DNA of 32,000 nt from Geobacter sulfurreducens PCA (GCF_000007985.2 NC_002939.5:1230001-1262000), one strand, 5' to 3'; counted from the stretch's first letter, positions 6,782 to 31,151 are shown. Numbers and translations are program-made. Notes: generated by a model from the sequence alone, not told the origin.

Positions 6782-6838
6782 GATTCCGACTCGCCCAGAT
6801 AGCAGGTGACTCCTTTACCGACACGCGCGAGGTCCATC

Positions 6839-7900: not shown

Positions 7901-7909
7901 AAGGCTGCC

Positions 7910-10970: not shown

Positions 10971-11042
10971 GGTGCCTTGATGTTTCGTCGATAAAGGGTT
11001 AAGCTTGGCCCAAGCACGGCGTATACATGGTGGAGTGAACAT

Positions 11043-12309: not shown

Positions 12310-12338
12310 TTGACTTTGCCGCTGCATGGCTCTATTCT
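12310..12338 (+). promoter_or_regulatory. Sigma70-like promoter (TTGACT-N17-TATTCT) upstream of the hpnJ-like gene
   Basis: -35 TTGACT at 12310-12315, a 17-nt spacer, and -10 TATTCT at 12333-12338. It lies about 50 nt upstream of ATG 12388, in a 109-nt intergenic gap. Confidence 0.45.
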
Positions 12339-12387
12339 GCCAGTTTATTCATGCGGATATGTCAGTCCCGCGCGCAGAGGAGCATCC

Positions 12388-13815: not shown

Positions 13816-13825
13816 TTCCGACCCC

Positions 13826-14692: not shown

Positions 14693-15065
14693 AACAGTAA
14701 TCATTATGCTCATGGCTGTGTCGGCCGGTACCATCGGCGACATCCTCCTCGCCAAGGGGATGAAGGAACTCGGTGACCTGTCGGCCATGAACCTGCGGGG
14801 TATCCTCAATGTAGCCGGGCAGGCCCTTACCTCGCCGAAGCTGATTTTCGGCACCGCCATGCTGGCGATCTTCTTCTTCCTCTGGCTAGCGGTCCTCTCC
14901 TGGGAAGACCTGTCCGTTGCCCTCCCCATGCAGGCCCTCAATTACGTCCTCGTGGCGTTCCTTTCCCAGTGGTTTCTCGGCGAGACCGTTTCTCCTCTTC
15001 GCTGGACCGGCACGATTATGGTCTGCGTCGGAGTCATGCTGATCACGAAAAGCGGAACCCCCTGA
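14685..15065 (+). CDS. Small four-TM EamA-domain (DMT superfamily) membrane protein
   Basis: 126 aa with four hydrophobic segments (VIIMLMAVSAGTIGDILL, LIFGTAMLAIFFFLWLAVL, ALNYVLVAFLSQWFL, WTGTIMVCVGVMLI). Its size and topology resemble half-size DMT/ArnE-ArnF-type proteins. The start overlaps the hpnK-like stop (ATGTTTAA). Confidence 0.7.
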   Translation: MFKTVIIMLMAVSAGTIGDILLAKGMKELGDLSAMNLRGILNVAGQALTSPKLIFGTAMLAIFFFLWLAVLSWEDLSVALPMQALNYVLVAFLSQWFLGETVSPLRWTGTIMVCVGVMLITKSGTP

Positions 15066-15086
15066 TGGGAGAGAATGCTTCATACG

Positions 15087-15124
15087 CAACGAAAAAGGGA
15101 GCCCTGCGGCTCCCTTTTTCGTTG
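15087..15124. terminator. Bidirectional rho-independent terminator between the convergent EamA-like gene and tpsB
   Basis: Perfect 17-bp inverted repeat CAACGAAAAAGGGAGCC-ctgc-GGCTCCCTTTTTCGTTG. The GC-rich stem core GGGAGCC/GGCTCCC is flanked by an A-tract and a T-tract, so a T-run follows the hairpin on both strands. Confidence 0.85.
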
Positions 15125-15142: not shown

Positions 15143-16819
15143 TCAGAGAATTTCGGAGCTGAGGGAGAAGTGAACCCTGACAGTCCCCGGATCGGGATCG
15201 CGTTCACCAACGGGGAAGCCGAAGTCGATCCGTCCCGTGAGATACTTGGCCAGATTCAGGATGAAGCCGAAGCCGGCGCTGGAGAGAAAATCATTGTGAT
15301 CGATGGATTCGCCGCTTCCCTTGTACGGAAAGGCGCCGCCGTGATCGAAGAAGATCGCTCCCCTGAGCAGGGGGCTAAGCCGGACATCGTAGACGGATGC
15401 GTCTGCCGGGAAGAGGGGAAGGGTCAGTTCCGCACTGACGAAGTAGCCGTCGTCGCCGATGAGGAGTCCCTCGTAGAACCCCCTGACAGTGGCTATGCCG
15501 CCGAGCTGAAATTGTTCGGAAGAGGGGAGCAGGTGATTGCCAGATACCTGGCCGCTTGCCCGCACCAGGGCCGAAAAATCGTCAGGCAGAATGAAAGTCC
15601 TGACCAGATCTCCATTGTATTTGAAAAAGCTCCGGTCGCCGCCGAAGTCGTGGAATCCCTGGGTAAGGACGTGCCGGGTGAACCAGGTGCCGTAGCCGTC
15701 GATGGCAAGCAGGTCACCACCCAGGGTAAGGGTCCTGGTTCTGTTTTCGAAGATGGTGTCGCCGCCGAAGTCTGTGGTCGATTTTTTCCAGTTGAACCCG
15801 GCAAAAGTGGTGACGCTCAGGGCTGGACTGAGTGCAAAGGGCTGACTGAGAGTGAGTCCCAGGTCGGAAGAGGTCCCATCCACGTCAAGTGACTCGAAGG
15901 GCCCCGAAGTAATCCAGATACTGGTGTAGTCGTAGGTGACGCCGAGCCGGGTACCGACCGGGGTGAGGGGGAGGCTGTATGAAGCATGAGCAGAGAGGGT
16001 GCCGTCCGCCACGGTCCCCCCGACGGTGAGGGGATCACGAATCCCCAGCAGGCTCAGGTCCTGCAGAGTGAGCCCCAGCCGCTCCTGGCCGATGTACCTG
16101 CCTCCTCCATTGTCGGCGAAAGCTACCACGCGGTAGTTGTCGGGCTCCTGAGTCCTGAGGATCAGGTCGGTGGTGCCGGTGGCTGTGCCCGGCTTGACCT
16201 CTGCCCGAAGCTTGACGTCGTTGATGGCATTGAAACGGAAGAGGTCGTTTTCGAGGGTGTCCAGCCGGACCAGGTCCCCCTCCCGAAGGTGCAGTCGTGA
16301 CGTAACGAACCAGTCCCGGGTATGGCGATTGCCCCCAACCGAGATCCTGCCGACGCGTCCCTCCACCAGCCTGATCCTGACCGTTCCCCTCTCAACCTTT
16401 TGCGGAGGAAGCACGGCGCGGGCGGTCAGGTATCCTTTCTGGCGATAGAGATCATTGATCCTGTCCACCATTGCCAGCAACTCGCGGATACTCACCTCCT
16501 TTCCCTCCAGTGGGGCGACGACCTGCCGCAGATCATCTTCCGTGAGAATTTCCGAGGGATCGGTGACGATATGGCTGATGAACACCCGCTGGCCGCCGTC
16601 GGCCGGAGGCTGTGGCGCCGGCTCGGTCCGGTCGGTAACCGCCTCCTCCGGGCGTGACTCCCGCGACTCCTTCAGTCTCTGCTGCAGCTCGTAGTAGTCC
16701 CGGACGTCGGACTCGCGTTTCATGACGGCACCGGCCTCGCTTCCCCGCAGGTCCTGGGCGTGAGCCGGGGCAGACAGGCAGGCGAGCAGTGCTGCGGTAA
16801 AGATCGTGGTCGTTTTCAT
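15143..16819 (-). CDS. TpsB outer-membrane transporter (ShlB/FhaC/HecB family, POTRA plus beta-barrel)
   Basis: Signal peptide MKTTTIFTAALLACLSAPAHA|QD. POTRA-like region (IRELLAMVDRINDLYRQKGYLTARAVLPPQKVERGTVRIRLVEGRVGRISVGGN). Conserved loop-6 type motif GGIATVRGF, then beta-strand-rich alternating sequence to the C-terminus. AGGGGA Shine-Dalgarno overlaps the tpsA stop codon, with 8 nt between the genes. Confidence 0.9.
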   Translation of the reverse strand: MKTTTIFTAALLACLSAPAHAQDLRGSEAGAVMKRESDVRDYYELQQRLKESRESRPEEAVTDRTEPAPQPPADGGQRVFISHIVTDPSEILTEDDLRQVVAPLEGKEVSIRELLAMVDRINDLYRQKGYLTARAVLPPQKVERGTVRIRLVEGRVGRISVGGNRHTRDWFVTSRLHLREGDLVRLDTLENDLFRFNAINDVKLRAEVKPGTATGTTDLILRTQEPDNYRVVAFADNGGGRYIGQERLGLTLQDLSLLGIRDPLTVGGTVADGTLSAHASYSLPLTPVGTRLGVTYDYTSIWITSGPFESLDVDGTSSDLGLTLSQPFALSPALSVTTFAGFNWKKSTTDFGGDTIFENRTRTLTLGGDLLAIDGYGTWFTRHVLTQGFHDFGGDRSFFKYNGDLVRTFILPDDFSALVRASGQVSGNHLLPSSEQFQLGGIATVRGFYEGLLIGDDGYFVSAELTLPLFPADASVYDVRLSPLLRGAIFFDHGGAFPYKGSGESIDHNDFLSSAGFGFILNLAKYLTGRIDFGFPVGERDPDPGTVRVHFSLSSEIL

Positions 16820-16827
16820 GTCATCCC

Positions 16828-19800
16828 CTAACGGTTTGCACCAGTATTGCCGGTGAGTACCTTCACCGTATCGGCTTCCAGCAGGGAATCGCTTGCGTCG
16901 ATGCCTACCGCTCCGGGCTGAATATCCACCGCGTCATGTCCGGAGGGCGCCATGTGCCGCTGCCATGGGCGGGATCCCGGTTCCATGGGGTCGTAGTACA
17001 GGCGGTTCTGCCGCTTGCCGGTCCAGATCATCTTTTCGGTCGTGCCGACCACGCTGTTCTCGGTGCTGAACCCGTTGACCACGAAGTGAGGATCATAGTT
17101 GACAGCGAATGCGGTGGTCGTGAAGCGTTTGTCGGCAGTCATCGTCAGGGAGAAAGGCTCCGTGGCATAGAGTTGCAGGTGGCACGGCCGAACCCTTTTG
17201 TCCCGGTTGCCGACGATAACGTGATACAGGCTGTTGCTGAAATCGCCCCGATTGCCGATACGGGTATCGAAGAGGCTCAGATTGTCCACATCGGCGGTTA
17301 TTACGGCGGTGTCGGACGAGAGATGATCAAAGTCGATGGCGGTGTTCGAATCGGTCCCGATTCGGACCATGTCCGCCATTGTCTTGCTGCCGCCGTCCAC
17401 GTCGAAGTGAAGCGTCCCGCTCCCCGTGTGATGGATTTCTCCCAAGAGCACCGTGTCGCCCCGGGCCATGACCGATTCGGCAACGTCGGCTTGGCCCACC
17501 ACGATGGTCCCGCCGGAGAAGGTGTTGCGCACGTCGAGTACTGTCGGGTCAACACGGTGGACCGTGAGGAGCGGACCGTTCGCCCGGATCGAAACCGTGC
17601 CGGGCGCGGAGATATGATCGGCGTCGACGGACCCGTCGGGCACCGTAAGGTGCACCGACCCGGTCTGGCTGACAACGCTGTCGACGGTGAGTCCGCCGCC
17701 TTGTTCTTCAAGGAAGAAGCTGTCCTGTGACAGCCCGGTCAGTATGCCCGCCGGCCGCAGGCGGGAGACAATGAACTTCTCCGCGGAGCCGACACTGCCG
17801 CCGGCCGCTTCAAGGCTCAGGTCGTCGGTGATCAGGTTCTCCCGGCCGTCGTCACGGCCGTTGACGATGTTAGCGGATGCGGTCATCCGGATTCGGCGCG
17901 GGGCGGTGATCCCGCCGACAATGGCCGAGCCGGCGGCGACCGACAGTTCCACTGCGCCGTTTGTGCTTGCGATAGTATCGATGGTGAGGTCGCCGTTCCG
18001 TTCTTCCAGGAAGAGATCGTCGCGGACCCAGGCGGTCAGGACTCCGTTGCCGGACAGGTCAGTGACCAGCGCGTTCGCCGATGTGCCGGCGCCCCCTGCC
18101 GAGGACTCGATGATCAGGTCGTCGCCGATGATGTTGACCCCGTTGTCATCCCGACCGTTAACGATGTTGCCGGATACTTCGAGCAGGACATGTCCGGGTG
18201 CGGAGATTTGGCCGATGGCGGCCGACCCGTTGGCGACGGTCAGTTCCACTGCGCCGTTCTGGCTGATGATGCTGTCGGCCGAGATGTCGCCGCCCGCTTC
18301 CCTGATGAAGATACCGTCCCTCGCCCGGGCGGTCAGCACACCTCCCAGTGACAGGTCGGTGACCAGCGGTCTGGCTGCGGAGCCGACCCCACCCGCAGAG
18401 GCTTCGAGGATGAGATCCCTGCCGATCAGGTTTGCCTCGTCATCGGTGCGGCCGTTGATTATTCCGCCTACGATCTTCAGGCGGATATCCCCGTTTCCTG
18501 CGTCGACCCGGTCGATGTTCACATCCGTTTCAGCTCCCAGGTAGACATGGTCGCGGGACTGGATGGTCACGCTCTGGGAGGCCCGCACATCCACGTCGTT
18601 CTTCAGTTGCACGATCAGGTTGCCATTGTCGATGGTGATATCGTCCTTCTCGGCACGGGCGACCATGATCCGCTGGTCGGGAGTCACCGTGCCGTTGCTG
18701 ATGGCGTCGGCGGAAATCACCTCGTCGGCAAGGACGCTGCCGACACCGGCCCCTGTCACGATGGTGACGTTGCGGCCCGAGACGTTCGCCTCTTCGATGA
18801 GAACCTCGGTCTTGCCCAGTTCGGGGATGGTGGTCAGGTTCTTGGCGTTGAGCAGTTCATCGGCGGTCCAGACGCCCTCGTTGAATTCACTCTGTTCCGT
18901 GGCGGTCAGGGTGTATTGCCATGACGGATCGTAGGTGGCGTCATACTGGTCGTCGCTCGGATCAAAGGGGGTACCGTTGTCGGAGAGGCGGTGTGCCGCC
19001 TGATACTGGCTTTTCTTCTGCTCCTTGTACTGATCGATGGATTGCTGGACTTTCGTGTCGTCGGTCAGTTTCAGGTCGTCCCAAGTTGTCAGGAGCTTGT
19101 CCTTCGTGTCGTCATCGAGGCCCTCGTTGAAGTTGTAATCCTCAAGGCCGCCGTCCACGGTAAGCACCACGTCTCCTTCCCGGGACGCAATCCGGTTGAT
19201 GTGCGCATTCCCCTCTTTTTCCGTCAGGTAGATGCTGTGGAGCGACTCCGCGGTCAGGATGCCGTCGGCGTTGACCACGAGGGCGTTGTCCCCGGTTCCG
19301 ATGCCGCCCGCCGTGGCAGTGAGAGAGATGTTGGTGCCGGTGATGGACGGTGAGGTTCCGGAACCGTCCCTGAGTGAGCCTGCCGATACGAGACGCACAT
19401 CCCCCGTGGTGGTGACGGTGTCGATCACCAGGTCTCCCTCCACCTCTTCCACATTGATCAGGCCGCCGGCAGTGGCCCTGAGACTCCCGCCAACCGTGTC
19501 GGTCCTGATCCCCTGGTCCAAGGTGCCGATGCTCCCCTCCGTGGCTGTGAGGGCGATATTCCTGCCGGTGACCAGATAGGTATCGTTGAGAGAGTAGATT
19601 CCGCCCCGGTCGTTCCTGATGCTCACGTTGCCGACTGTGTTCCTGATGGAGCCGTTCAGGTAGATGTCGGAGGGTCCGGCGGCGCCGCTGTTGAAGATGC
19701 TGATCCTCCCTTCGTCCAGATTGCCCAGGAATTCGATGCCGATGGGATTGTCCGCTTTCTTGCCGAACTGGTCGAGAATGGCCTGCTTCATGCCCGCATC

Positions 19801-22800
19801 CACCATCAGTGCGAACTGGAGCCAGAAGTTACCGGCGGTGAAGCGGGTAGTCCACCAGTTGTCCCAAGCTGCTGCCACATCCTTTTCGGTGATGGTCCAG
19901 TCGCTGAACGTAGCGACGCGCGCGCCGGCATGGGGTGCATAGGATGAAGACCGGCTGTCAGCCTTGTGGCTGTCCAGTTCGGTATAGATAAATTTTCTGG
20001 TCGCCGCGTCCCAGAGCTGATATCCCTGGGACACGTTGAGGGCGTCTCCGTTGCCGGTGATCAGGGTGAGGAGCTGGTTGTTGTCCCCCACGTAGATGCC
20101 GTTGTCAGTGTACTTGCGGCCGGTGTCGACGATCTTGATCTGGCCGTCGACCCGCGGTCCCACGTCCAGGGTGTTGATCACCACGTCCCTGGACGAGAGG
20201 TTCTCAATGACAATTTCGCCGTAGCCGTCCATGACCTTCAGGGCGCCCGTGCCGGTCGTGCTGACGATATTGCCGAACAGTTCCACCTTTCCGCCGCCGA
20301 AGTCCACCCGGTAGATGACGATCCGCTGGTTTACCGGGTCCCACTTGGCCACGCTCAACTCGTCGCCGATGGTCGGGATGACCATGTCCGGACCGAGTGT
20401 TTCGGGATCGAACTCGGGAATAGTGATGTAGCGGTAAGGAATGCCGCTCTGGATGGTGTCGTTGATGTCCAGTATCTCGCCGCTGATATAGATGTTGTTG
20501 CCGGCAATCAGGTGGCCCGGCTGGTAGAGGCCCGGCTGCCACTCGCGGACAAAGCCGCCCTGCATGACCATGTCCAGGTCGTCGGCGATAATGTTGCCGC
20601 CGACGGCGACGCTGCCGCTGTTGTTCCGGATGGAAACCCGGCCGCCGTAGTTGATGATGTCGCCCTTCAACACGATATCGGACGGGGTGAGGGCCCCGGG
20701 GAAGTCATCCAGATAGGCGTTGTTGAAGATCTCGATCCGCCGGCCCAGATTCTGTCCGGCAACGATCTGCAGCGTCTCTCCGCCATAACTGTGGGACGTG
20801 ATGGCCTTGCCGTTTAGATTGACATTGCCGCTGGCAGATTTGGGGATTTCCAGGTCGTTCAACTCCAGATGCGCCAGAGAGTTGTTGTCGATCCTGATCA
20901 TGAAGTCGGTCCCCGGCACCTTCAGGGTCCCGGTCCCCTTGAGGGTCGTTGTGGTGATATTGATGTCGCCCGACCCGGTCATGAGGTCCTTGACCGCGAT
21001 CAGGGGAACCGTAAGTTCCGCGTTGCTCTTCCCCTCCCACTCTGCCAGTTTCTGCTCCAGGATCTGCACCTCGGTCTTGAGGGCGTCGTACAAGATCTTG
21101 TCACCTTCCGGCAGGTTGGGATACGTGCCGGAAGGGTCGATCTCGGCAATCTTGGCGTCGAGTTTGGCCTTCTTGTCCAGCACCTTGTCCCGCAGGTTAA
21201 TGGTGGTCTGCTCGTAGTCAGCCGAGGTAAGGGTACCTCCGACCACCGTCCCGTCCGGTCCGATCACCAGGGTCTTGTGGCGGTTCAGTCCGCTTTCCAG
21301 GGTGCCGTTCACGGTGACGGACGGGCCGCTGACGTCGGTACCCTCGTGGTTGAAGAACCAGCTCCGCCGGCTTCCGTTGCTGTAGATGGTGATGGGTATG
21401 CCGAAGAGGAGGTATGATTTCTTTTTGGCCTTGGCATATCCCTCGACGGTGGCAAGGCCGCTGAAGGCGCCCAGATTGATGTCTCGGCCCGCCTTCAGGT
21501 TCGAGCCGGTGTCGATAAGGATGTCGTTGAAGTCATAGAGGTAGGCCCATCCCGTCACGTCGCTGACCGGGATGGCCCCCGACACCCAGGAACGGGCGTC
21601 TGCCCGGGAGATGAGACTGTTCTGGAGATCCGAGAGCCCCTGGCCGGCAAAGAGGTCGATGTCGTTGTCGGCACTGAGCGCGGCATTCGTCCCGACCACC
21701 ACGTCGTTGTCCGCCACAACGGTGTTGAGTGCGGTCCCATCGCCGCCGGCGGCGAATCCCCAAGTACTGGTGTTGGTGGTGGTTTGGACGTTGGCGTTGG
21801 TCTTGGCCAGAACGTTCAGGTCGTTGCCGGCGTGCACGTTCGCATTGGCTCCGATTGTGGCCGTGGCGGTGTTGTCGCTGGTGATGGCCGATCGCACGTC
21901 GGCGACGGCGATGAGCCCTCCAGCGGAAAGTTGTGCCATGTCTGTGGCCAGCACGGCGTTTTCAGCGGCCACCGTCAGGTCGCCGCCGGCGCTGATCGTC
22001 TGGTCCGACCCGCTGATGGTATTGCCTGCCAGGGTAGCAGTGGTGAAGGTGCTCAGGGAGGTGGAACTCTGCCCGGCGGCGCCGCCGAATACCCCGCCCG
22101 CCCCTGATGTGAGGTTGGCCGGGCGTTGCGGGCTGTACTTTACGATCTCATTCAGGGCCAGGACAGCCAGGTCCGTCCCGGCTTCGAGGGCGTTATTGGT
22201 TCCCACCGACGCCTCCACCACGGACGTTGCGGCATTGTCGGTCCGGGCGCCGCTCACCCCCACGAGGCCGGCCGTTGAGCTGTCGGCAAAAGCGTTGAGG
22301 GTAGTCAGAGCATCTGCCGTAATGGCGATACTATTCGTTGCATGGATCTTTCGGGCATTGTCATCGCTGCTGTCGGCGATGGCAGCGGTAGTGGTGTTGA
22401 CCTGGATAGTTTCGGCCCTGGTCGTGACCCCTGCTATGCCGCCGCCGGCACCGGCCCGGGAGTCGGCCAGGGCGACATTGGACGAGGTGGCGGCCACGTT
22501 AACGCTGTCGGTGGTTATGGCCGTATTGCCGCCGATGAGAGCACCTGTCGTTGAGCCAAACCAGGAGATGAAACGCCCCTGGGCGTCGTAGAGCGGCACT
22601 GCGGTGACGGCCGTGGCTGTGTTGGAGCCGAAGGCCGCCAATCCGCCGATCCAGCCGCTGGCATCGGAAGATGCGCTGTTGGTGGTGGTTGCGGTGACGG
22701 ATACGGCTCTGTCCGCCTCAATGGTGCTGCCGCTGCCGATGGCAGTGTTCACCTGCGGCAGGCCGGTCGCGGTTGAAGTGGTGCCGGCTATGCCGATCAG

Positions 22801-25800: not shown

Positions 25801-28800
25801 GGCATCGCCGTCATCGGCATCGTTCACGTGTGCGCCTTGGCCGACGGTGGCGTAAGTTTTTTCGTCCAGGACGGTGACGGTGGCCGAACCCGCAATGCCC
25901 ACCTTGCCGCCGCCGGCTCCGCCGGCAGCGATGGTCTGGAGATTTTCGAAGGAGGCGGCTGAAACCGCCAGCCCGGTTACATCTTCTTTTGTCCGGTTCC
26001 CCGAGGCGTCCTTGTCGCCGGTATAGATCCGGCCCGCAGTGCCGTTGCCGCGGGCACTGACCGTGGCGCCGGCGCCAAGGGTCGCTTCCACGAGGTTATG
26101 AGTGACGAGCGTGGAGTTGGCGACGGCGATGGCCGCGCTGCCCGCGCCAGCCACGTTGCCCGCCAGGCTGAAGATATCCACGTCGTCCGAAGCGGTGACC
26201 AGCACGTTGCCGTCGGCGGTTACGCCGGACGTGCCGTCAATGGTGGCGGTCACGCTGTTGGTGCCTTCTGCCACCGATACTGATCCGCCGATGCCCACCT
26301 TGCTTGCGAAGCTCCCTCCCACGGCAAAGGCTTGCACCCGAGTGGTGGAATCGGCCGCAACCTCCACGTTACCCGAGGTAGATTCCACGTCTGCGCCGGT
26401 CCGGATGCCGGCATCAACAATGTTGCTCACATCGCTCCAGGCAAAGGAGAGGCCGAAGGCCGCCTTGCCGGAGGTGGCGGCGAGCCCGCCGGCAATGGCA
26501 AATATCCGCGACTGGTCGTCGGCGGCAAGGGAAATGCTGCCGACTGACTCGACGCCGCTGCCGTTGTTCTGGCCGGAGATCCAGGCATGGGTCTCGTTGC
26601 TGAGGGTGTTGACCGACACCGCGGCCTCGCCGGCCATGTCCCCCGTGCTGGCCCCGAGGGCGGCGGAGATGGTGTCGATGGCGTTGTTGGTGGTGGCCGA
26701 GACGGTGATGTCCCCAGTGGCGGTCAGGGCGGATGTATCCACATACGCCTGGGTCAGGTTGTCCAGGCTGTTCCAGGCGAAGGAGAGGCCGATTCCCGCC
26801 TTGCCGCCATAGGACACGGCGCCGGCGATGGATTTGATGATCGAGTCGTCCCGGGCGGTCAGGTCCACAGCCTCGACTCCTCGGACCGTACTCCCGGTCA
26901 GGTATGTCTGGGTTGTGTTGGTAATTTCATTGACCGACACCGAACCGGCAACCCCCACCTTCCCCTTTGTGCCCTGGACCGAGGCCGAGATGGTATTGAT
27001 CTCACCGTTCACCTGGGCATCCATGTCCAGGTCTCCGCTGATGGTAAGCGATGCGTCATCCAGGTAGGCGGCGGTCGTGCCGCCCAGGGTGTTCTGCGAG
27101 TAGGAACCTGCCAGACCGTTGCCTTCCTGCTGAGTGGAGATCGTTACGGCGCCGGCTAGGGCGTTGACGGCCAGGGTGTTGGTGGCGCTCAGGGTGGCGT
27201 TGCCGGCCTGGCTTACCGTGGCGCCGTCGCTGATGTAGGCCAGGGTGTCGGACGTGATGTCGTTTACCGACGCATCGCCCGACACGGCAATGCCGAACGT
27301 GCCTTTGCCGCTGCCGCTGGAACCGGCCACGCTGCCGGCGCCATCCTTCGTTTCCTGAGCATCCTTGGGGACTTCGGTCTGGGCCGTGCTGTTGGTGGCA
27401 AGGGCTCCAGTCACGGAATAGGCCCCGATCTCATTGGAGGAGGTTGCCTTGACCGTCAGAGAGCCGTCAGTGCTGACCTGGCCCAAGGCAGGTACATCAT
27501 CCTGCTGTAGCGGGTCGTAGTTGCCGATGTAAGCCGAAGCATCGGTATCGATGGTGTTGAGCGACACGGCGAAGCCGATGCCGACCTGGCCCTTGGTGGC
27601 CACCACGCCGCCGGCCACGGAAATGGTCTTCGCAGTTCCCTTGGCCTCAACGCTGATATTGCCTCCGGCGTCCACATCGGCATCATCGTCGATGGCCGCC
27701 ACTGCCCCGCCGGTGATGGTGTTTATGGAAACCGCCCCTTCAACTCCCACCTGGTCCGACGAACCGCCGGCCTCGGTCACGGTGACCAGGTGGTTCACGT
27801 TCTCCGCCTTGACATCGATGGTAGACTCGGATTTCACCACGGAATCGCCGCGGATGGTTGCCGTCGCGTTTTCCCTGATGTCGATAATATTGCCCGAGCC
27901 GCCGATTGCCGCCTTGCCGCCGCTGGTGCCGAGAAATTTCTTCGACAGCAGCCCCACCGCGTTGACGGTGCTGATGTCGTTTTTCGCGTGCACGGTGACG
28001 ATCTGGTTCGGCAGGGTCATGGCGTCTTTGTCGAAAACGGTGTTGATCCTAGCCCCTTCGTCGATCCATGCGTTGGCATTGTTTTCCAGGTTAAAGACGC
28101 TGACCGCCGCTGCCAGGCCCATGCCGCTCTTCCCGCCAGCCGAGTTGATTGCGTAGGAGGTGAGCAGCAGGTCGAGAATTCCGTCCTGGAGATGATTCAG
28201 GATCGTAACTGGCGAGTCCCAATCGATCTGCCAGGGGTAAGGGACGACGGTCTGGGCATCGACCAGCAGGCTTCCCGTGGCGTCGACCGAAGCGCCGGTC
28301 CCGATGCTGGCGCTGGCATTGTTGGTGAAGTCGGCGATAACGGCCGCCCCGCCGATGGCAGTGCCGGTAGAGGTGGCCTTGGAGCCGACGCTGGCGTTGG
28401 GACGATCATCGATCCGGGCGGTGACGTCGATGTTTCCCTGAGCCTGTACCGTGGCGTCCGGGGCTATGGCCGCGGTGGTGGTATTCACGGACTTGCTGTA
28501 GGTAACCGCTCCCGAGAGGTTGAACGTGCCTTCCTTGATGCCCGGGAAGATGAAGCCGGTAATGCGCTCGGAGGTTTCCGGCTTGAGCAGGCCGGTGGCG
28601 TCGATGATGCCTTTGGTGACGTTTCGCTTGATCCCGGCCTGGAAGTCGGTAATTCTGGCCGAGATGGTGTTCGGGTTGCCCAGCGTCGCCGCGTCGGCGC
28701 CGGTGTTATTTTTGGTGATGTCCGTGGTGGCTTTCACCGTGACGTTGCCGGCGTCGGCGGTAACGTTGCCGCCAAGGGTTGCCGTCGTCGTCGTGGTCGA

Positions 28801-30969
28801 CTCATTGACCGCCACGGCGATGCCCACGCCGCTTCCCCCGGCGTTTTTGGCCAGGGCATTGGCCGAGATGTCCGCCGTGGCTGCTGCGTTCACCTCAACC
28901 GCCCCGGCTGTGGTGGTGGTATCGTTTCCCACCAGGGATGTGGTGACGGCGGTATTCTTCGCATGAACGAATACGGCATCAACGGGTTTGTTGGTAGAGT
29001 TTACGTCGGCAGTCACATTAATCTCGACGTCGGTGGTCGCCTTGACTGTTGCTTTGTTGGCGGCGGACAGTTCCGTTGTTCCATTCACCAGGGTTTTTGC
29101 TTCAACGGTGGATTCGCCCCATGCCGCCGAGAAGAGCAGGGGGCTGGAAAAGGTGGGTTTTGCCGCTGATATGCCCTCGGAGCTGATGGTAAGCGTGTCC
29201 CCGGCACTGATGAAGGTGGCTCCGCCGACAGTTGTGTGCGCCGTGGCAGTTGAGAGGGATACCAGGGGTATTTCGCTGAAGTCGAAGAGTTGATCATTGA
29301 GAAGCTGGAGCTCGCCCGTGACCGGATCCGGCAACCAACTCTGGTCGGTCAGCTTCAGAACACTGCCAAGAACGTTGAAGGTAAGCGAGGTGTCGGCGGT
29401 GCTGGTGATGGAGACCTTATTGCCCCTGATGTAGCTTTTCGCAAGAACCGTGGCCTGGTCGGCGTCCCGCAGGTCGTCGATGATCACTTCGGCGACGGCG
29501 TTCTTTTTGAACCCGGCCCGGGCGCCGGCCTTTGCCTCGATGGTTACCGCGCCGGTCCCTTCGATAGTTGTGCCGTACAGCTCGGTCTTGGCCGTGGCGC
29601 TGGTCGTGACTGCCAGGTACTCGCCGCCGGGTCCGTCGGACACCAGGTCGTCCAGTTCGCTGTTCAGATAGGCCTGTGCCTCATCCAGCGAGAGGGTCGG
29701 GTTCTGTTCCAGCAGATGCACGATCAGGGATGTGTCCGCAATGGACGACAGGGTCACGTTCCGGCCGCGAATGACGGAGTTCACTGCCCTGATGCCGGCG
29801 TCTGCGGTGCGTGATGCGCCGATGGCGTTGATAGCGGATACCTTGAGCAGCACATCGCCTCCCTTGGCCGGGTCGCTGGCATGGCCGGCCAGGAGACGGG
29901 CGCCGTTATTGAGAGTGATGTTTTGCCCGGCAAGGAGCTCGATGTTGCCGGCAAGGTAGTCGCCGCTGGCATGAGTCAGCAGCCGGGCGCCGGAGCCCAG
30001 GGTGATGGTTGGCGCCTCAAGGGTCAGGTTGCCCGAGTTGCCGCTCGAATTATCGGTCAACAGGTGCACGGCGGCATCGGAGGGATCGCCCTCGATCTTC
30101 CGGGTGGAGATCGTTTCGCCATCCGCCACGATCAGTTCCGTGCCGGCCTGGAGATGGAGCGACTGGCCCTTGCTGTAAATTGATCCATAGTTCTCGACGC
30201 TTTGAGCAGCCACAATTTCAATGCCGCCGTTGCGCGCGACGATGTTGTTGCCGCTTTCAAGTCCGTCCGCGTTGACCATGGCTCTGAAGAGCGAACCCGT
30301 GTCGGCTGCTGTCCCGTAGGTGCCGGTGGAAGTGATCGTTCCGCTGTTGACGACGCTGCCGCCGCTGAGGCGAATAGTGCCGAGGGCATTGATCTGCCCC
30401 CTGATCGAAATGAGCCCGTCGGGGTTTATGGGGACTGTGCCGTTCAGCATCATGGCGGCGGCACTTTCAGAGGGGACACCGGGGGCCAGGAAAAAGCTCT
30501 CCATGAATGACGTGGTGGGCGTCATGACGGACAGGGCGCCGACGTTGACGCTTCCCGACGCGCCGACCAGAAAGCCGTAGGGGTTCGCGAAGAAGACGTT
30601 ACCGCCGATGCGGCCGTCCTTGTAAGCGTTGAGGATGCCGTCGATGGTACTTGCCTGGCCGTGGACCAGGTTCAGGAGGTTGACGGCGCTGTCCGGTACG
30701 TGAAGGTTGACCACGTTACCCCGGTAGACGTCGAAGGTCTGGAAAGAGTTGTAGGCATTGGCGCCACGGACGGTGGAGGTGGTGACGTCAGTGACGTTGT
30801 CCCTGATGGTGAGGGAGGTGCCGGTTCTGCCATCGGGAACGATCTGGGCGGGGAAGGCCTGGGGCGGGAGAGAGAGGGTCAGTGCTGCGCTGAGAGAAAC
30901 CAGTTTTCTGAAGGTGCTGCGTTTGCCGGTAAAGGCGCCAAGTGTCCTTTTGGCTCGTTTTCCGTTCAT
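16828..30969 (-). CDS. Giant TpsA exoprotein (4,713 aa): filamentous-hemagglutinin-type N-terminal TPS domain with very long beta-helical repeat arrays
   Basis: GGAGG (plus-strand cctcc at 30976-30980) lies 6 nt before ATG 30969. The track's start at 31080 adds 37 implausible residues. Basic N-region plus hydrophobic signal peptide (...KLVSLSAALTLSLPPQAFPA|QIV). TPS-domain landmarks: AYNSFQTFDV, VNLLNLVHGQASTIDGIL, GGNVFFANPYGFLVG (the NPNGI-equivalent). Thousands of residues of G/A/T/S/V/N/D-rich repeats follow. By eye there is only one Cys (RVRPCHLQ). A TpsB gene follows immediately. Confidence 0.93.
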   Translation of the reverse strand: MNGKRAKRTLGAFTGKRSTFRKLVSLSAALTLSLPPQAFPAQIVPDGRTGTSLTIRDNVTDVTTSTVRGANAYNSFQTFDVYRGNVVNLHVPDSAVNLLNLVHGQASTIDGILNAYKDGRIGGNVFFANPYGFLVGASGSVNVGALSVMTPTTSFMESFFLAPGVPSESAAAMMLNGTVPINPDGLISIRGQINALGTIRLSGGSVVNSGTITSTGTYGTAADTGSLFRAMVNADGLESGNNIVARNGGIEIVAAQSVENYGSIYSKGQSLHLQAGTELIVADGETISTRKIEGDPSDAAVHLLTDNSSGNSGNLTLEAPTITLGSGARLLTHASGDYLAGNIELLAGQNITLNNGARLLAGHASDPAKGGDVLLKVSAINAIGASRTADAGIRAVNSVIRGRNVTLSSIADTSLIVHLLEQNPTLSLDEAQAYLNSELDDLVSDGPGGEYLAVTTSATAKTELYGTTIEGTGAVTIEAKAGARAGFKKNAVAEVIIDDLRDADQATVLAKSYIRGNKVSITSTADTSLTFNVLGSVLKLTDQSWLPDPVTGELQLLNDQLFDFSEIPLVSLSTATAHTTVGGATFISAGDTLTISSEGISAAKPTFSSPLLFSAAWGESTVEAKTLVNGTTELSAANKATVKATTDVEINVTADVNSTNKPVDAVFVHAKNTAVTTSLVGNDTTTTAGAVEVNAAATADISANALAKNAGGSGVGIAVAVNESTTTTTATLGGNVTADAGNVTVKATTDITKNNTGADAATLGNPNTISARITDFQAGIKRNVTKGIIDATGLLKPETSERITGFIFPGIKEGTFNLSGAVTYSKSVNTTTAAIAPDATVQAQGNIDVTARIDDRPNASVGSKATSTGTAIGGAAVIADFTNNASASIGTGASVDATGSLLVDAQTVVPYPWQIDWDSPVTILNHLQDGILDLLLTSYAINSAGGKSGMGLAAAVSVFNLENNANAWIDEGARINTVFDKDAMTLPNQIVTVHAKNDISTVNAVGLLSKKFLGTSGGKAAIGGSGNIIDIRENATATIRGDSVVKSESTIDVKAENVNHLVTVTEAGGSSDQVGVEGAVSINTITGGAVAAIDDDADVDAGGNISVEAKGTAKTISVAGGVVATKGQVGIGFAVSLNTIDTDASAYIGNYDPLQQDDVPALGQVSTDGSLTVKATSSNEIGAYSVTGALATNSTAQTEVPKDAQETKDGAGSVAGSSGSGKGTFGIAVSGDASVNDITSDTLAYISDGATVSQAGNATLSATNTLAVNALAGAVTISTQQEGNGLAGSYSQNTLGGTTAAYLDDASLTISGDLDMDAQVNGEINTISASVQGTKGKVGVAGSVSVNEITNTTQTYLTGSTVRGVEAVDLTARDDSIIKSIAGAVSYGGKAGIGLSFAWNSLDNLTQAYVDTSALTATGDITVSATTNNAIDTISAALGASTGDMAGEAAVSVNTLSNETHAWISGQNNGSGVESVGSISLAADDQSRIFAIAGGLAATSGKAAFGLSFAWSDVSNIVDAGIRTGADVESTSGNVEVAADSTTRVQAFAVGGSFASKVGIGGSVSVAEGTNSVTATIDGTSGVTADGNVLVTASDDVDIFSLAGNVAGAGSAAIAVANSTLVTHNLVEATLGAGATVSARGNGTAGRIYTGDKDASGNRTKEDVTGLAVSAASFENLQTIAAGGAGGGKVGIAGSATVTVLDEKTYATVGQGAHVNDADDGDAAQNVLIRASDRTGLLGVAGAVAFGGSGGVGAGADVGVITKDTEASIASSAQTPTTVKAKGNIVVTADSSEDITSVAASLSAGGSAGIAGSASVYDLGLNTAATIGNSAVVRADGSVAVSAHDGTEMDMIAGNGAFGGTAGVGASAAVQVITKTVIAAIGEQADVTGRGTGDGVVVADGGFAVSYGADSGDEGEIRAPTTNGSGSDSGALTGQRSAPPSTRTVNGVAVTATNQDDIESISATGSIAGTAAITLAGNVNAITTTTSATIGTGATVNQDTAAADAGQSVLVAAGNDYYHMGVAGSGSGAGAVGIGVGADVTVANLTTTADIGEGALVSAAKDVEVSALAGEEVLSISASLGVAGTVGVSGSVSVLSIDNTTSAGTGTDSMVDAGGNVRIAARDDTETDMIAGTVAIGIGGAGVGGAVGVTSVSKETTATVGSNATVNARGNDTGSMTAYTGDDSDTTGQIRGLSVEAASSEDIFSVAAAGAGGFYAGVSGAVTVQTVDSATRASIGTNASVNEGVTDGHDEQDVNVSARNSARTNVITGALGVGALGAAGGVDVGAIRNDTSASIADGAQIYANRDVEVNALAKTEIDSVVVSAAGGLGAIAGGVAVYSVGTGLEQEAKDQLKSDGGDFADVNSYADDQASDNSIGTLLTGSGDSRIRSIAADAQAKRSDVAVTDQLNNQTPRGTAAFIGGAAVEAGRHVDVSARRTVDADILAGAAAGGALGLGAGIGIVNVSGSTQAYILGSGRANAAGNILVSANTDATGTVDAYVGTGGIVAVNAALAIYNDTASTSAYLGDGGVIDRADQVDINATGLHTVTAHTFGVSAGAAAGGLSLAKARVGGTIDASVGEDTRIGQDSRNTGDTVGSLSVSAQTITNGTARSEAAAGGILSGQGSIATADIGPTVTAEIGNRTAARVDTDVAAMATATVTGTATANGASIGALGVGVSEATARTMPVVRATIGDETVITAGQDVTVSGTATTTATTHATASAGALIGIAGTTSTATGLPQVNTAIGSGSTIEADRAVSVTATTTNSASSDASGWIGGLAAFGSNTATAVTAVPLYDAQGRFISWFGSTTGALIGGNTAITTDSVNVAATSSNVALADSRAGAGGGIAGVTTRAETIQVNTTTAAIADSSDDNARKIHATNSIAITADALTTLNAFADSSTAGLVGVSGARTDNAATSVVEASVGTNNALEAGTDLAVLALNEIVKYSPQRPANLTSGAGGVFGGAAGQSSTSLSTFTTATLAGNTISGSDQTISAGGDLTVAAENAVLATDMAQLSAGGLIAVADVRSAITSDNTATATIGANANVHAGNDLNVLAKTNANVQTTTNTSTWGFAAGGDGTALNTVVADNDVVVGTNAALSADNDIDLFAGQGLSDLQNSLISRADARSWVSGAIPVSDVTGWAYLYDFNDILIDTGSNLKAGRDINLGAFSGLATVEGYAKAKKKSYLLFGIPITIYSNGSRRSWFFNHEGTDVSGPSVTVNGTLESGLNRHKTLVIGPDGTVVGGTLTSADYEQTTINLRDKVLDKKAKLDAKIAEIDPSGTYPNLPEGDKILYDALKTEVQILEQKLAEWEGKSNAELTVPLIAVKDLMTGSGDINITTTTLKGTGTLKVPGTDFMIRIDNNSLAHLELNDLEIPKSASGNVNLNGKAITSHSYGGETLQIVAGQNLGRRIEIFNNAYLDDFPGALTPSDIVLKGDIINYGGRVSIRNNSGSVAVGGNIIADDLDMVMQGGFVREWQPGLYQPGHLIAGNNIYISGEILDINDTIQSGIPYRYITIPEFDPETLGPDMVIPTIGDELSVAKWDPVNQRIVIYRVDFGGGKVELFGNIVSTTGTGALKVMDGYGEIVIENLSSRDVVINTLDVGPRVDGQIKIVDTGRKYTDNGIYVGDNNQLLTLITGNGDALNVSQGYQLWDAATRKFIYTELDSHKADSRSSSYAPHAGARVATFSDWTITEKDVAAAWDNWWTTRFTAGNFWLQFALMVDAGMKQAILDQFGKKADNPIGIEFLGNLDEGRISIFNSGAAGPSDIYLNGSIRNTVGNVSIRNDRGGIYSLNDTYLVTGRNIALTATEGSIGTLDQGIRTDTVGGSLRATAGGLINVEEVEGDLVIDTVTTTGDVRLVSAGSLRDGSGTSPSITGTNISLTATAGGIGTGDNALVVNADGILTAESLHSIYLTEKEGNAHINRIASREGDVVLTVDGGLEDYNFNEGLDDDTKDKLLTTWDDLKLTDDTKVQQSIDQYKEQKKSQYQAAHRLSDNGTPFDPSDDQYDATYDPSWQYTLTATEQSEFNEGVWTADELLNAKNLTTIPELGKTEVLIEEANVSGRNVTIVTGAGVGSVLADEVISADAISNGTVTPDQRIMVARAEKDDITIDNGNLIVQLKNDVDVRASQSVTIQSRDHVYLGAETDVNIDRVDAGNGDIRLKIVGGIINGRTDDEANLIGRDLILEASAGGVGSAARPLVTDLSLGGVLTARARDGIFIREAGGDISADSIISQNGAVELTVANGSAAIGQISAPGHVLLEVSGNIVNGRDDNGVNIIGDDLIIESSAGGAGTSANALVTDLSGNGVLTAWVRDDLFLEERNGDLTIDTIASTNGAVELSVAAGSAIVGGITAPRRIRMTASANIVNGRDDGRENLITDDLSLEAAGGSVGSAEKFIVSRLRPAGILTGLSQDSFFLEEQGGGLTVDSVVSQTGSVHLTVPDGSVDADHISAPGTVSIRANGPLLTVHRVDPTVLDVRNTFSGGTIVVGQADVAESVMARGDTVLLGEIHHTGSGTLHFDVDGGSKTMADMVRIGTDSNTAIDFDHLSSDTAVITADVDNLSLFDTRIGNRGDFSNSLYHVIVGNRDKRVRPCHLQLYATEPFSLTMTADKRFTTTAFAVNYDPHFVVNGFSTENSVVGTTEKMIWTGKRQNRLYYDPMEPGSRPWQRHMAPSGHDAVDIQPGAVGIDASDSLLEADTVKVLTGNTGANR
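17599..18489 (-). repeat. Three in-frame tandem repeats of 297 nt (99 aa each) inside tpsA
   Basis: Units begin DIRLKIVGGIINGRTDDEANLIGRDLILEASAGGVGSAARPLVTDLS..., HVLLEVSGNIVNGRDDNGVNIIGDDLIIESSAGGAGTSANALVTDLS... and RIRMTASANIVNGRDDGRENLITDDLSLEAAGGSVGSAEKFIVSRLR.... Each ends ...ISAPG or ITAPR. Hand alignment of units 1 and 2 gives about 55 of 99 identical residues. Confidence 0.85.
21700..28850 (-). repeat. Degenerate Gly/Ala/Thr/Ser/Val-rich repeat array (predicted beta-helix shaft) inside tpsA; boundaries approximate
   Basis: Dozens of roughly 50-60-aa units share the pattern G-x-[AG]-G-[IV]-G-x-[SA]-x-[AS]-[VW]-[NS]-x-[IL]-x-N-x-T-x-A-x-[IV]...G-[ND]-[IV]-x-[VL]-x-A...[IV]-x-[SA]-[IV]-A. 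Examples are GGSGVGIAVAVNESTTTTTATLGGNVTADAGNVTVKATTD, GKAGIGLSFAWNSLDNLTQAYVDTSALTATGDITVSATTN and GKAAFGLSFAWSDVSNIVDAGIRTGADVESTSGNVEVAAD. Confidence 0.7.
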
Positions 30970-31052
30970 GGAAAGCCTCCCACTGCGCCGTGCCGGTGCA
31001 GATGACCCGTCCTGGGTAGAAATGGTATGAGATTTTGAATGTATGCATTTTA

Positions 31053-31080
31053 ATAATACGTTGATTGTCCGAAGAGTCAA
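31053..31080 (-). promoter_or_regulatory. Sigma70-like promoter for the tpsA-tpsB operon (TTGACT-N16-TATTAT on the minus strand)
   Basis: The minus strand reads TTGACTcttcggacaatcaacgTATTAT (plus-strand agtcaa 31075-31080, ataata 31053-31058). It sits inside the only markedly AT-rich patch of this region and predicts a 5' UTR of about 75 nt. Confidence 0.45.
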
Positions 31081-31127
31081 TGGGTTACTGCGGGCCAGCT
31101 GGTGGTGGCGATGAGAAGTGCAACGAA

Positions 31128-31151
31128 AAAGGGAGCCGAACGGCTCCCTTT
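31128..31151 (-). terminator. Rho-independent terminator downstream of the glutaredoxin-like gene (minus strand)
   Basis: The minus strand reads AAAGGGAGCC-gttc-GGCTCCCTTTTTCGTTGC, a GC-rich 7-bp core stem followed by a T-run, 30 nt past the stop at 31181. The sequence nearly duplicates the terminator at 15087-15124. Confidence 0.8.

What the first reader, a model, noticed from the sequence alone, without database searches (positions are those of the whole stretch)
15143..31080. 16-kb two-partner secretion operon encoding a 4,713-aa exoprotein with composite architecture and no recognizable effector/immunity logic
- **TPS pair:** tpsA carries a clear TPS secretion domain (AYNSFQTFDV...NLLNLVHGQASTIDGIL...FFANPYGFLVG). 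It is followed 8 nt later by a ShlB/FhaC-type tpsB whose Shine-Dalgarno overlaps the tpsA stop.
- **Unusual cargo layout** (gene orientation, plus-strand coordinates descending):
  - signal peptide and TPS domain, about 30969-30070
  - a transition beta-helix, to about 28850
  - about 2,400 aa of Gly/Ala/Thr/Ser/Val repeats, about 28850-21700; these resemble the leukotoxin-LktA/filamentous-adhesin class more than FhaB-type repeats
  - a compositionally distinct aromatic-rich core with a coiled coil, about 21700-19650
  - a second repeat class, 19629-17599
  - a unique 256-aa tail
- **Secretion-compatible composition:** only one Cys is visible in the whole protein, consistent with unfolded export through TpsB.
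- **Operon order:** tpsA then tpsB, with no third gene. This differs from cdiBAI, from cdiAIB, and from lktBAC as I recall them.
- **Why it matters:** in a Geobacter-like metal reducer, a fibre of this length could act in attachment to minerals or electrodes, in aggregation, or in contact-dependent interaction. I am not aware that any of these roles has been tested for this protein class.
Basis: partly seen in the sequence, partly recalled or inferred. Interest (0 to 1): 0.75.

Follow-up and report, generated by a model that had tools for sequence, protein, structure and literature searches.

The report
Giant secreted fibre protein of Geobacter
This is a real two-gene outer-membrane secretion system of Geobacter sulfurreducens (GSU1154/GSU1153) that exports a 4,713-residue rod-like surface protein; it belongs to a known, widespread family, carries no toxin or immunity module, and its actual role is still untested.

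Summary
Window 16828-30969 (-) encodes a 4,713-aa TpsA. Eight nt downstream, 15143-16819 (-) encodes a 558-aa ShlB/FhaC-type TpsB. No third gene follows. The window is G. sulfurreducens PCA: GSU1154 ("surface repeat protein", RefSeq "leukotoxin LktA family filamentous adhesin") and GSU1153.

TpsA consists of:
- a signal peptide and an LktA-type TPS domain;
- about 35 copies of a 53-aa repeat (aa 614-3063);
- a 1,600-aa C-terminal module with no Pfam, NCBIfam or PDB match.

AlphaFold models (pLDDT 86 and 82) show that module as continuous beta-solenoid with helical inserts and a disordered last 80 aa. No toxin fold is present.

The layout is not unique. An exhaustive HMMER search finds 570 representative clusters sharing the C-terminal module, including collinear 4,400-6,000-aa proteins. 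The "unique" tail is conserved in at least 30 of them. tpsA-then-tpsB order holds in 10 of the 11 related loci that reach the end of tpsA.

Published data:
- Tn-seq shows no fitness cost of insertions on electrodes.
- Both genes rise about fourfold in the biofilms of two regulator mutants.

Best reading: a long type Vb adhesin or matrix fibre, a new member of a known kind. Interest is modest.

The parts
31120..31150 (-). Terminator-like hairpin plus T-run after the upstream glutaredoxin-family gene (GSU1155). It marks the upstream boundary of the operon and is copy 1 of a 31-nt element.
   Evidence: Read directly. Pattern match, with 0 expected by chance.
31053..31080 (-). Sigma-70-like promoter (TTGACT, 16-nt spacer, TATTAT), about 84 nt upstream of the tpsA ATG.
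   Evidence: 10 of 12 positions match. This is a consensus match only, not proof of function.
16828..30969 (-). tpsA (GSU1154), 4,713 aa plus the stop codon.
30850..30969 (-). Signal peptide, about aa 1-40 (basic N-region, hydrophobic core, ...AFPA/QIV).
   Evidence: Sequence inspection. Homologs align from the same QQI(I/V)PDG start. The cleavage site is inferred.
30199..30849 (-). TPS secretion domain, LktA/FxxPxG subtype (aa 41-257).
   Evidence: PF05860 at E 4.9e-14. NF012204 at 162 bits and TIGR01901 at 41.5 bits.
21781..29130 (-). Stalk: about 35 tandem copies of the 53-aa LktA-type repeat (aa 614-3063). Copies are degenerate at both ends.
   Evidence: NF012206 at 340 bits against a cut-off of 50. 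Own iterated HMM.
19600..21669 (-). Modules M0, M1 and M1b (aa 3101-3790). Predicted beta-solenoid with two protruding helical hairpins, at aa 3259-3310 and at the Trp-rich aa 3695-3735.
   Evidence: AlphaFold model, pLDDT 86 and pTM 0.74. Conserved in homologs. No Pfam, NCBIfam or PDB match.
19138..19572 (-). Two copies of a 76-aa repeat (aa 3800-3944), related to the 99-aa repeats further on.
   Evidence: Modelled as beta-solenoid.
18592..19134 (-). Acidic, Tyr/Trp-rich insert (aa 3946-4126) with predicted helices at aa 3953-4042. It is the most widely conserved piece of the C-terminal module (motif YDPxWxYxLT...W...EL).
   Evidence: Hit in 115 of the 149 representatives analysed. Secondary structure.
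17566..18591 (-). About 3.4 copies of a 99-aa repeat (aa 4127-4468), modelled as high-confidence beta-solenoid.
   Evidence: pLDDT 92-98.
17071..17565 (-). Conserved C-terminal end piece (aa 4469-4633) that continues the beta-solenoid. It carries the QLYA...VVNYDxxFxVNxFSTENS motif and the lone, semi-conserved Cys4596.
16831..17070 (-). Last 80 aa (aa 4634-4713), predicted disordered and poorly conserved.
   Evidence: pLDDT 26-40. Alignment.
15143..16819 (-). tpsB (GSU1153), 558 aa: an Omp85/ShlB-FhaC-type transporter.
   Evidence: POTRA_2, ShlB and Omp85 domains. VRGF at aa 445 and FFDHG at aa 490.
15086..15116 (-). Terminator-like hairpin between the convergent tpsB and EamA genes. It marks the downstream boundary of the operon and is copy 2 of the 31-nt element.

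Best explanation
GSU1154/GSU1153 is a type Vb (two-partner) secretion system.

Proposed mechanism:
1. The 4,713-aa TpsA crosses the inner membrane by Sec.
2. [quoted passage not shown]
3. The chain is threaded out unfolded and folds outside the cell into one very long beta-solenoid rod.

The rod has two parts. About 35 copies of a 53-aa repeat form a length-setting stalk. The conserved 1,600-aa C-terminal module forms a distal 'head'. The head is solenoid decorated with two helical hairpins and an acidic Tyr/Trp-rich helical insert.

The most likely role is non-enzymatic: a surface adhesin or biofilm-matrix fibre, functionally comparable to CdrA or FHA. It is not a toxin-delivery device.

What is shown and what is inferred:
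- Shown: gene structure, family membership, absence of toxin and immunity modules, predicted fold, conservation, and expression and fitness data from the literature.
- Inferred: actual secretion, rod geometry (of the order of 100 nm by analogy with FHA), the distal position of the C-terminal module, and the adhesive role.
For: Family membership:
- TPS domain and LktA repeats score above the curated cut-offs.
- TpsB has POTRA_2, ShlB and Omp85 domains and both hallmark motifs, VRGY/F and F/GxDxG (motif definitions from PMC5422565).

Operon:
- The 8-nt junction carries a Shine-Dalgarno.
- The operon has its own promoter-like site and terminators at both ends.

Fold of the C-terminal 1,613 aa:
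- AlphaFold models with pLDDT 86 and 82 show nearly all-beta solenoid plus helical inserts.
- The only, weak Foldseek neighbours are beta-helical adhesins, autotransporter passengers, the FHA TPS domain and curli.

Conservation:
- The tail is conserved across phyla at 28-64% identity.
- Every G. sulfurreducens strain keeps an intact 4,713-aa ORF with at most 123 substitutions and no indels. This argues for a selected function.

No toxin logic:
- There is no immunity gene or other third gene.
- The same two-gene layout is found in relatives.

Expression:
- GSU1153 and GSU1154 are up about fourfold in the biofilms of the delta-gsu1771 mutant (on graphite) and the delta-csrA mutant (PMC10599522; PMC11934962).
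Against: - No experiment shows secretion, surface display or adhesion.
- Tn-seq shows no fitness defect for GSU1154 insertions on poised electrodes: 165 sites, mean log2 ratio -0.09. GSU1153 is at +0.25. The fibre is therefore not required for electrode colonisation in a pooled culture, although a shared matrix component could be supplied by neighbouring cells.
- The family's name-giving member, F. necrophorum LktA, is described as a cytotoxin rather than an adhesin (PMC11350119).
- The conserved head has no recognisable ligand-binding fold.
Confidence: 0.6

Rival explanations
1. It is a membrane-damaging exoprotein like F. necrophorum LktA or the ShlA-type TPS cytolysins. The fibre or its head would insert into and damage foreign cells, for example protozoan grazers or competitors.
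For: - It belongs to the LktA family by its N-terminal domain and repeats.
- LktA is reported to be cytotoxic to leukocytes.
- A Trp-rich, partly hydrophobic helical hairpin (aa 3695-3735) protrudes from the solenoid.
- The operon is co-upregulated with type VI secretion and phage-tail-like gene clusters in two mutant biofilm transcriptomes.
Against: - The toxic determinant of LktA is not mapped, and I could not obtain the LktA sequence for comparison, so family membership says nothing about toxicity.
- There is no lktC.
- The hairpin is poorly conserved among close homologs (sequences).
- Most family members come from free-living anaerobes, planctomycetes and cyanobacteria.
- No pore-forming fold was detected.
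Confidence: 0.15
2. It is a CdiA-like contact-dependent delivery system. The second half would be held in the periplasm and exported on contact, delivering the C-terminal tail as an effector.
For: The order of parts resembles the CdiA layout described in PMC9086364:
- GSU1154: TPS, repeat class 1, a distinct core, a Tyr-rich acidic insert, repeat class 2, then a tail.
- CdiA: TPS, FHA-1, receptor-binding domain, YP domain, FHA-2, pretoxin domain, C-terminal toxin.
Against: - No Pfam or NCBIfam family of any kind, FHA-1, FHA-2, DUF637 and PT-VENN included, matches beyond the TPS domain and the LktA repeats.
- The tail is conserved rather than polymorphic.
- The tail is modelled as solenoid plus a disordered end, not a globular toxin.
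- No immunity gene follows tpsA here or in 10 related loci.
Confidence: 0.05
3. It is a horizontally acquired cassette with little current function in G. sulfurreducens.
For: - No homolog from another Geobacter species appeared in the GTDB species scan. That scan was pattern-limited.
- Relatives sit in unrelated genomic contexts.
- Near-identical 31-nt hairpins bracket the operon.
- Tn-seq is neutral.
Against: - A 14-kb ORF is kept intact, without indels, in every sequenced strain and in many assemblies.
- The operon is transcriptionally regulated.
- GC content fits the flanks once the Gly/Ala-rich coding is allowed for.
Confidence: 0.1

Closest known systems
Fusobacterium necrophorum leukotoxin LktA (lktBAC operon)
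   Same: - It has the N-terminal FxxPxG-subtype TPS domain (NF012204, 162 bits) and the 53-aa tandem repeats (NF012206, 340 bits) that define the NCBIfam 'LktA family'.
- It has a POTRA_2-containing partner that probably serves for secretion.
   Different: - Gene order here is A-B with no lktC. In Fusobacterium it is lktB-lktA-lktC.
- It is about 1,470 aa longer than LktA (3,241 aa, from my own recollection of the original description).
- The organism is a free-living metal reducer.
- Whether LktA shares the C-terminal module could not be tested, because no LktA sequence was retrievable with these tools.
- Toxicity was not tested.
Pseudomonas aeruginosa CdrA/CdrB (biofilm-matrix TPS adhesin)
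   Same: - It is a two-gene tpsA-then-tpsB operon (PMC5422565).
- The passenger is a beta-helical exoprotein.
- Expression is linked to the biofilm state.
   Different: - No sequence relationship was tested or detected. CdrA is roughly half the size (own knowledge).
- c-di-GMP control is known for cdrAB but not shown here.
- CdrA binds the Psl polysaccharide (own knowledge). No ligand is known for GSU1154.
Bordetella FhaB/FhaC (FHA)
   Same: - It uses the type Vb mechanism: a TPS domain, a beta-helical rod, and a TpsB with two POTRA domains and the L6 VRGY/F motif.
- The weak top Foldseek hit is the FHA secretion domain, 1rwr.
   Different: - No Fil_haemagg repeat is detected. TIGR01731 reaches only E 0.24.
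- The TPS subtype is different.
- No proline-rich prodomain is recognisable.
CdiA/CdiB contact-dependent inhibition systems
   Same: It is a type Vb system, with a similar order of repeat class 1, distinct core, Tyr-rich segment, repeat class 2 and tail.
   Different: - No FHA-1, FHA-2 or pretoxin-VENN domains.
- The tail is conserved rather than polymorphic.
- No immunity gene.
Uncharacterised giant TpsA proteins sharing the same C-terminal module (e.g. P0030, 4,784 aa; Thalassospira marina WP_101286506.1, about 8,766 aa by CDS length)
   Same: - The module order is collinear: TPS, 53-aa repeats, M0, M1, 76-aa repeats, insert, 99-aa repeats, tail.
- tpsB follows immediately downstream.
- Identity to P0030 is 42-49% over the C-terminal half.
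   Different: - Stalk length and repeat number vary.
- Some members, such as P0032, carry a classical NPXG-type TPS domain instead of the LktA subtype.
- None has a known function.

Membership tests
Two-partner secretion (type Vb) | TpsA carries an N-terminal TPS secretion domain after a signal peptide. | tested here: met
   PF05860 at 53.3 bits against a cut-off of 33.5. TIGR01901 at 41.5 bits against 29.1.
Two-partner secretion (type Vb) | The partner is an Omp85-type TpsB with POTRA domains and a ShlB/FhaC barrel. | tested here: met
   POTRA_2 at 79.9 bits, ShlB at 72.4 bits and Omp85 at 46.4 bits.
Two-partner secretion (type Vb) | TpsB has the L6 VRGY/F motif and the beta13 F/GxDxG motif. 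| tested here: met
   VRGF at aa 445 and FFDHG at aa 490. Motif definitions from PMC5422565.
Two-partner secretion (type Vb) | TpsB-dependent export of TpsA is demonstrated. | not testable with these tools
   This needs fractionation of wild type against delta-GSU1153.
LktA-family filamentous adhesin (NCBIfam) | FxxPxG-type N-terminal domain (NF012204) at or above 60 bits. | tested here: met
   162.4 bits over aa 60-206. RefSeq uses this name.
LktA-family filamentous adhesin (NCBIfam) | LktA_tand_53 repeats (NF012206) at or above 50 bits. | tested here: met
   339.8 bits. About 35 copies by my own HMM.
LktA leukotoxin system (lktBAC) | Operon order lktB-lktA-lktC, with an lktC gene. | tested here: not met
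   The order is tpsA-tpsB, followed by convergent unrelated genes. The lktBAC order is taken from PMC11350119.
LktA leukotoxin system (lktBAC) | Cytotoxic activity. | not testable with these tools
   No assay is possible. The LktA sequence was not retrievable for a C-terminal comparison (one search returned only short fragments).
CdiA / CDI | FHA-1 and FHA-2 repeat regions. | tested here: not met
   No Pfam hit of any kind beyond TPS, either in the whole protein or in 10 segments.
CdiA / CDI | Pretoxin domain with a VENN-type motif, followed by a polymorphic C-terminal toxin. | tested here: not met
   - No Pfam family reaches its curated cut-off in the query's C-terminal segments.
- No family recurs in more than 2 of the 18 and 20 homolog segments, and none of the stray hits is a toxin or pretoxin family.
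- The tail is conserved in at least 30 representatives across phyla.
- The tail is modelled as solenoid plus a disordered end.
CdiA / CDI | An immunity gene lies directly downstream of the toxin-encoding end. | tested here: not met
   tpsB starts 8 nt after the tpsA stop. The same holds in 10 related loci.
FhaB-type filamentous haemagglutinin | Fil_haemagg / 20-aa FHA repeats. | tested here: not met
   There is no Pfam Fil_haemagg hit. TIGR01731 reaches only E 0.24, below its cut-off.

The most novel reading that the evidence does not exclude
The conserved 1,600-aa C-terminal module is an undescribed functional 'head' shared by hundreds of giant TpsA fibres in environmental bacteria. It comprises solenoid modules M0 and M1, a helical acidic Tyr/Trp insert, the 76- and 99-aa repeats and an FSTENS end piece.

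It might work by a staged export in the manner of CdiA. The head would be held back or exposed on contact, mediating cell-cell or cell-mineral recognition without any toxin. In Geobacter that could bear on aggregate or syntrophic-partner contact.
Probability: 0.12. Interest if true: 0.6.

Novelty: new member of a known kind. Interest (0 to 1): 0.3.

Why it matters
- **For Geobacter biology.** This is the largest gene in the region and is conserved intact in every strain. It is a candidate surface or matrix fibre that responds to two biofilm regulators, yet it has never been deleted on its own.
- **More generally.** A 1,600-aa module found in at least 570 protein clusters of giant type Vb exoproteins has no Pfam or NCBIfam model and no structural relative. 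Defining it would improve annotation of many environmental genomes.
- **Limits.** The finding does not overturn anything. The secretion mechanism and the family are known.

Tried and rejected
1. **Word-indexed homology searches.** Searches on the C-terminal 1,613 aa, the tail and the TPS domain returned only 8, 1 and 29 hits, mostly fragments. That wrongly suggested a near-orphan module. The exhaustive HMMER search corrected this, so I disregard the low counts.
2. **The search for related loci with the 20-sequence alignment A3.** It failed because no stretch was conserved enough. It worked with the narrower alignment A4, but only through two peptide patterns, so the 11 loci are a lower bound. 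G. sulfurreducens itself did not appear.
3. **Structure and sequence comparisons with known proteins.** None gave a significant match.
   - Foldseek against the PDB with both models: nothing at E <= 1e-3.
   - PDB sequence and profile searches: nothing.
   - Pfam on 38 homolog segments: nothing consistent.
4. **Rfam on the whole window.** No hit, so no riboswitch leader was found.
5. **F. necrophorum LktA.** I could not retrieve its sequence, so I could not test whether it shares the C-terminal module. I deliberately did not rely on my memory of the sequence.
6. **A conserved third gene downstream of tpsB in related loci.** Raw ORF lists were too noisy to use. I rely instead on called genes in L019, L007 and the Thalassospira record.
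7. **Toxin reading of the tail.** I considered a CdiA-type or polymorphic-toxin reading and rejected it (see rival explanations).

Full report
**What is in the sequence**

The window holds a 14.25-kb ORF on the minus strand (16828..31080) and a 558-codon ORF directly downstream (15143..16819). The long ORF's first in-frame start is a TTG. The sensible start is ATG 30969, which is preceded by GGGAGG. That gives 4,713 aa.

The junction reads CGT TAG GGGATGAC ATG. The gap is 8 nt, and an AGGGG ribosome-binding site overlaps the stop codon.

Upstream features:
- A small glutaredoxin-family gene with a signal peptide, ending at 31181.
- A hairpin plus T-run at 31120-31150.
- A sigma-70-like promoter at 31080-31053.

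Downstream of the second gene lies another hairpin plus T-run (15086-15116). Beyond it are convergent plus-strand genes, EamA and YdjC-like. The unit is therefore a self-contained two-gene operon.

**Identity**

- The TpsB sequence is found exactly in G. sulfurreducens genomes.
- The TpsA is identical to AAR34530.1/WP_010941815.1 of strain PCA. It was formerly named 'surface repeat protein, putative' and is now named 'leukotoxin LktA family filamentous adhesin' by RefSeq.
- The Tn-seq table of Chan et al. lists GSU1153 (1248830-1250506), GSU1154 (1250515-1264656) and GSU1155 (glutaredoxin family). Their lengths and spacings are the same as in the window.

**Family assignment**

TpsB:
- It has POTRA_2, ShlB and Omp85 domains.
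- It has the two hallmark Omp85/TpsB motifs, VRGF (aa 445) and FFDHG (aa 490). The motifs are defined in PMC5422565.

TpsA:
- It gives no Pfam hit when scanned whole.
- Its first 330 aa hit the TPS domain PF05860.
- They hit the LktA-subtype domain NF012204 much more strongly, at 162 bits against a cut-off of 60.
- NF012206, the 53-aa LktA tandem repeat, scores 340 bits.
- An HMM iterated on the protein itself finds about 35 copies between aa 614 and 3063.

No Fil_haemagg, DUF637, PT-VENN or toxin family is detected.

**The C-terminal 1,600 aa**

Residues 3101-4713 match nothing in Pfam, NCBIfam or PDB sequences.

Self-comparison shows two repeat sets:
- A 76-aa repeat in 2 copies at aa 3800-3944.
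- A related 99-aa repeat in about 3.4 copies at aa 4127-4468.
- An acidic, Tyr/Trp-rich segment (aa 3946-4126) separates them.

I built two alignments from homologs and obtained confident AlphaFold models.

Model of aa 3101-3945 (pLDDT 86, pTM 0.74):
- It is almost entirely beta-strand solenoid.
- Two helical hairpins protrude. The other is the Trp-rich aa 3695-3735.

Model of aa 3946-4713 (pLDDT 82, pTM 0.70):
- It starts with a helical insert at aa 3953-4042.
- It then forms an uninterrupted, very high-confidence solenoid running through the 99-aa repeats and on through the 'tail' to about aa 4633.
- The last 80 residues are disordered.

Further comparisons:
- Foldseek against the PDB gives nothing significant. 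The weak neighbours are all beta-helical adhesins, autotransporter passengers, the FHA secretion domain and curli.
- Profile searches of PDB sequences are negative.
- Pfam scans of 38 homologous segments are negative.

There is thus no sign of an enzymatic or toxin domain. The protein looks like one continuous rod with a decorated end.

**Is the layout unusual?**

It is not. The word-indexed searches suggested near-orphan status. An exhaustive HMMER scan with aa 3301-4500 shows otherwise:
- 570 representative clusters at E <= 1e-3.
- 117 clusters below 1e-30.
- Many are proteins of 4,400-6,000 aa.

Module mapping shows the same collinear order in these proteins: TPS, 53-aa repeats, M0, M1, 76-aa repeats, insert, 99-aa repeats, tail.

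The tail occurs at the C-terminus of at least 30 of the 149 best-scoring representatives that were analysed. It carries a strongly conserved QLYA...VVNYDxxFxVNxFSTENS block. Cys4596 is shared by 7 of the 20 aligned sequences, the query included.

The closest relative, P0030, is 42-49% identical over the C-terminal half.

One relative, P0032, combines the same repeats and head with a classical NPXG-type TPS domain. The head is therefore not tied to the LktA-type secretion domain.

**Operon order and distribution**

tpsB follows tpsA directly in 10 of the 11 related loci that include the gene end:
- L006, L007, L010-L014 and L017.
- L019.
- A Thalassospira marina megaplasmid that encodes a TpsA of about 8,766 aa, judged from its CDS length.

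The exception is L016, where a second tpsA follows instead. Where called genes are available, the next genes are convergent and unrelated. A-then-B order also has characterised precedents, cdrAB and hmw1ABC.

Named hosts include Desulfatiglans and other Desulfobacterota MAGs, Syntrophaceae, Planctomycetes, Gammaproteobacteria, Thalassospira and Dolichospermum. No other Geobacter species turned up, but that scan relied on two peptide patterns only.

**Published functional data**

- **Tn-seq.** GSU1154 tolerates insertions at 165 sites. Its log2 ratios against the parent library are -0.44 in fumarate and -0.06 and -0.11 on electrodes. GSU1153 averages +0.25 on electrodes. The system is dispensable for growth on poised electrodes in a pooled culture. 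A shared extracellular component could, however, be supplied by neighbouring cells.
- **Transcriptomes.** Both genes rise about fourfold (log2 fold change 1.8-2.4) in biofilms of the delta-gsu1771 mutant on graphite (PMC10599522). They rise similarly in delta-csrA biofilms (PMC11934962). Type VI secretion and phage-tail-like clusters rise alongside them.
- **Gaps.** I found no paper that deletes or localises the protein.
- **Strain conservation.** All ten 4,713-aa sequences in its 90%-identity cluster (nine besides PCA, several from named G. sulfurreducens genomes) differ by at most 123 substitutions and have no indels. There is no repeat-number variation, and the ORF is evidently maintained.

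**Interpretation**

The best-supported mechanism is ordinary type Vb secretion of a very long beta-solenoid fibre, with a repeat stalk and a conserved distal head. An adhesive or matrix role is the most likely. It resembles CdrA or FHA in function and the LktA family in sequence. I put 0.9 on 'TPS-secreted LktA-family beta-solenoid exoprotein without toxin or immunity module' and about 0.6 on the adhesin or matrix role.

Rivals:
- An LktA/ShlA-like membrane-damaging activity (0.15).
- A CdiA-like staged delivery (0.05). The order of parts is superficially similar, but every defining feature that could be tested was not met.
- A largely idle acquired cassette (0.1).

**Verdict**

The claims of unusual architecture, a unique tail and an unusual operon order do not survive comparison with homologs. 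The protein is a new, uncharacterised member of a known kind. What remains interesting is the widespread, unmodelled C-terminal head module and the absence of any single-strain phenotype test in a model electroactive bacterium.

Noticed in passing
window 31120-31150 (-) and 15086-15116 (-): The operon is bracketed by two direct copies of a 31-nt terminator-like element, AAGGGAGCCnnnnGGCTCCCTTTTTCGTTGC. The copies are identical except in the 4-nt loop. No other copy lies in the 32-kb window, and 0 are expected by chance. This could be a footprint of insertion next to a terminator, or a common Geobacter terminator type. The closest homolog's locus (L019) has no such flanking repeat.
   Followed up: partly
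window 31181-31551 (-): The glutaredoxin-family protein GSU1155 has an N-terminal signal peptide (MRKIFTAACVLAIAALAVPVLAADV...), so it is apparently periplasmic. It lies directly upstream of tpsA but is separated from it by a terminator. The TpsA itself has only one Cys, so a functional link is unlikely.
   Followed up: no
window 24-6687 (+): A chemotaxis cluster is present: two MCPs (one with tandem HAMP domains), CheW, CheR, CheD and CheB. It is followed by two NMT1/phosphonate-binding-like periplasmic proteins, a dCache-HAMP histidine kinase and an EAL-HDOD protein (6806-12278).
   Followed up: no
window 12310-15065 (+): A B12-binding radical SAM enzyme, a YdjC-like protein and a small EamA-type membrane protein converge on tpsB. 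The role of this trio is unknown.
   Followed up: no
P0032 (one search hit), aa 1-140: This 4,485-aa homolog has the same 53-aa repeats and C-terminal head (49% identity), but a classical NPXG-type TPS domain (TIGR01901 at 80 bits, no NF012204 hit). The secretion domain and the fibre body have been shuffled between TPS subtypes.
   Followed up: partly
L016 (gammaproteobacterial MAG), 3-20465: Two LktA-type tpsA genes lie in tandem. The first appears split into three ORFs. No tpsB lies between them, which is an exception to the A-then-B pairing seen elsewhere.
   Followed up: no
tools:: The word-indexed protein search returned only a handful of mostly short hits for this low-complexity, repetitive giant protein. 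The exhaustive HMMER search found hundreds. Apparent orphan status from the indexed search is unreliable for such proteins.
   Followed up: yes
TpsB aa 1-22 (window 16754-16819): The signal peptide contains ...AALLAC|LSAPAHA. UniProt calls the protein an outer membrane lipoprotein, but the sequence also fits ordinary signal peptidase I cleavage after AHA. Lipidation of a TpsB would be unusual.
   Followed up: no
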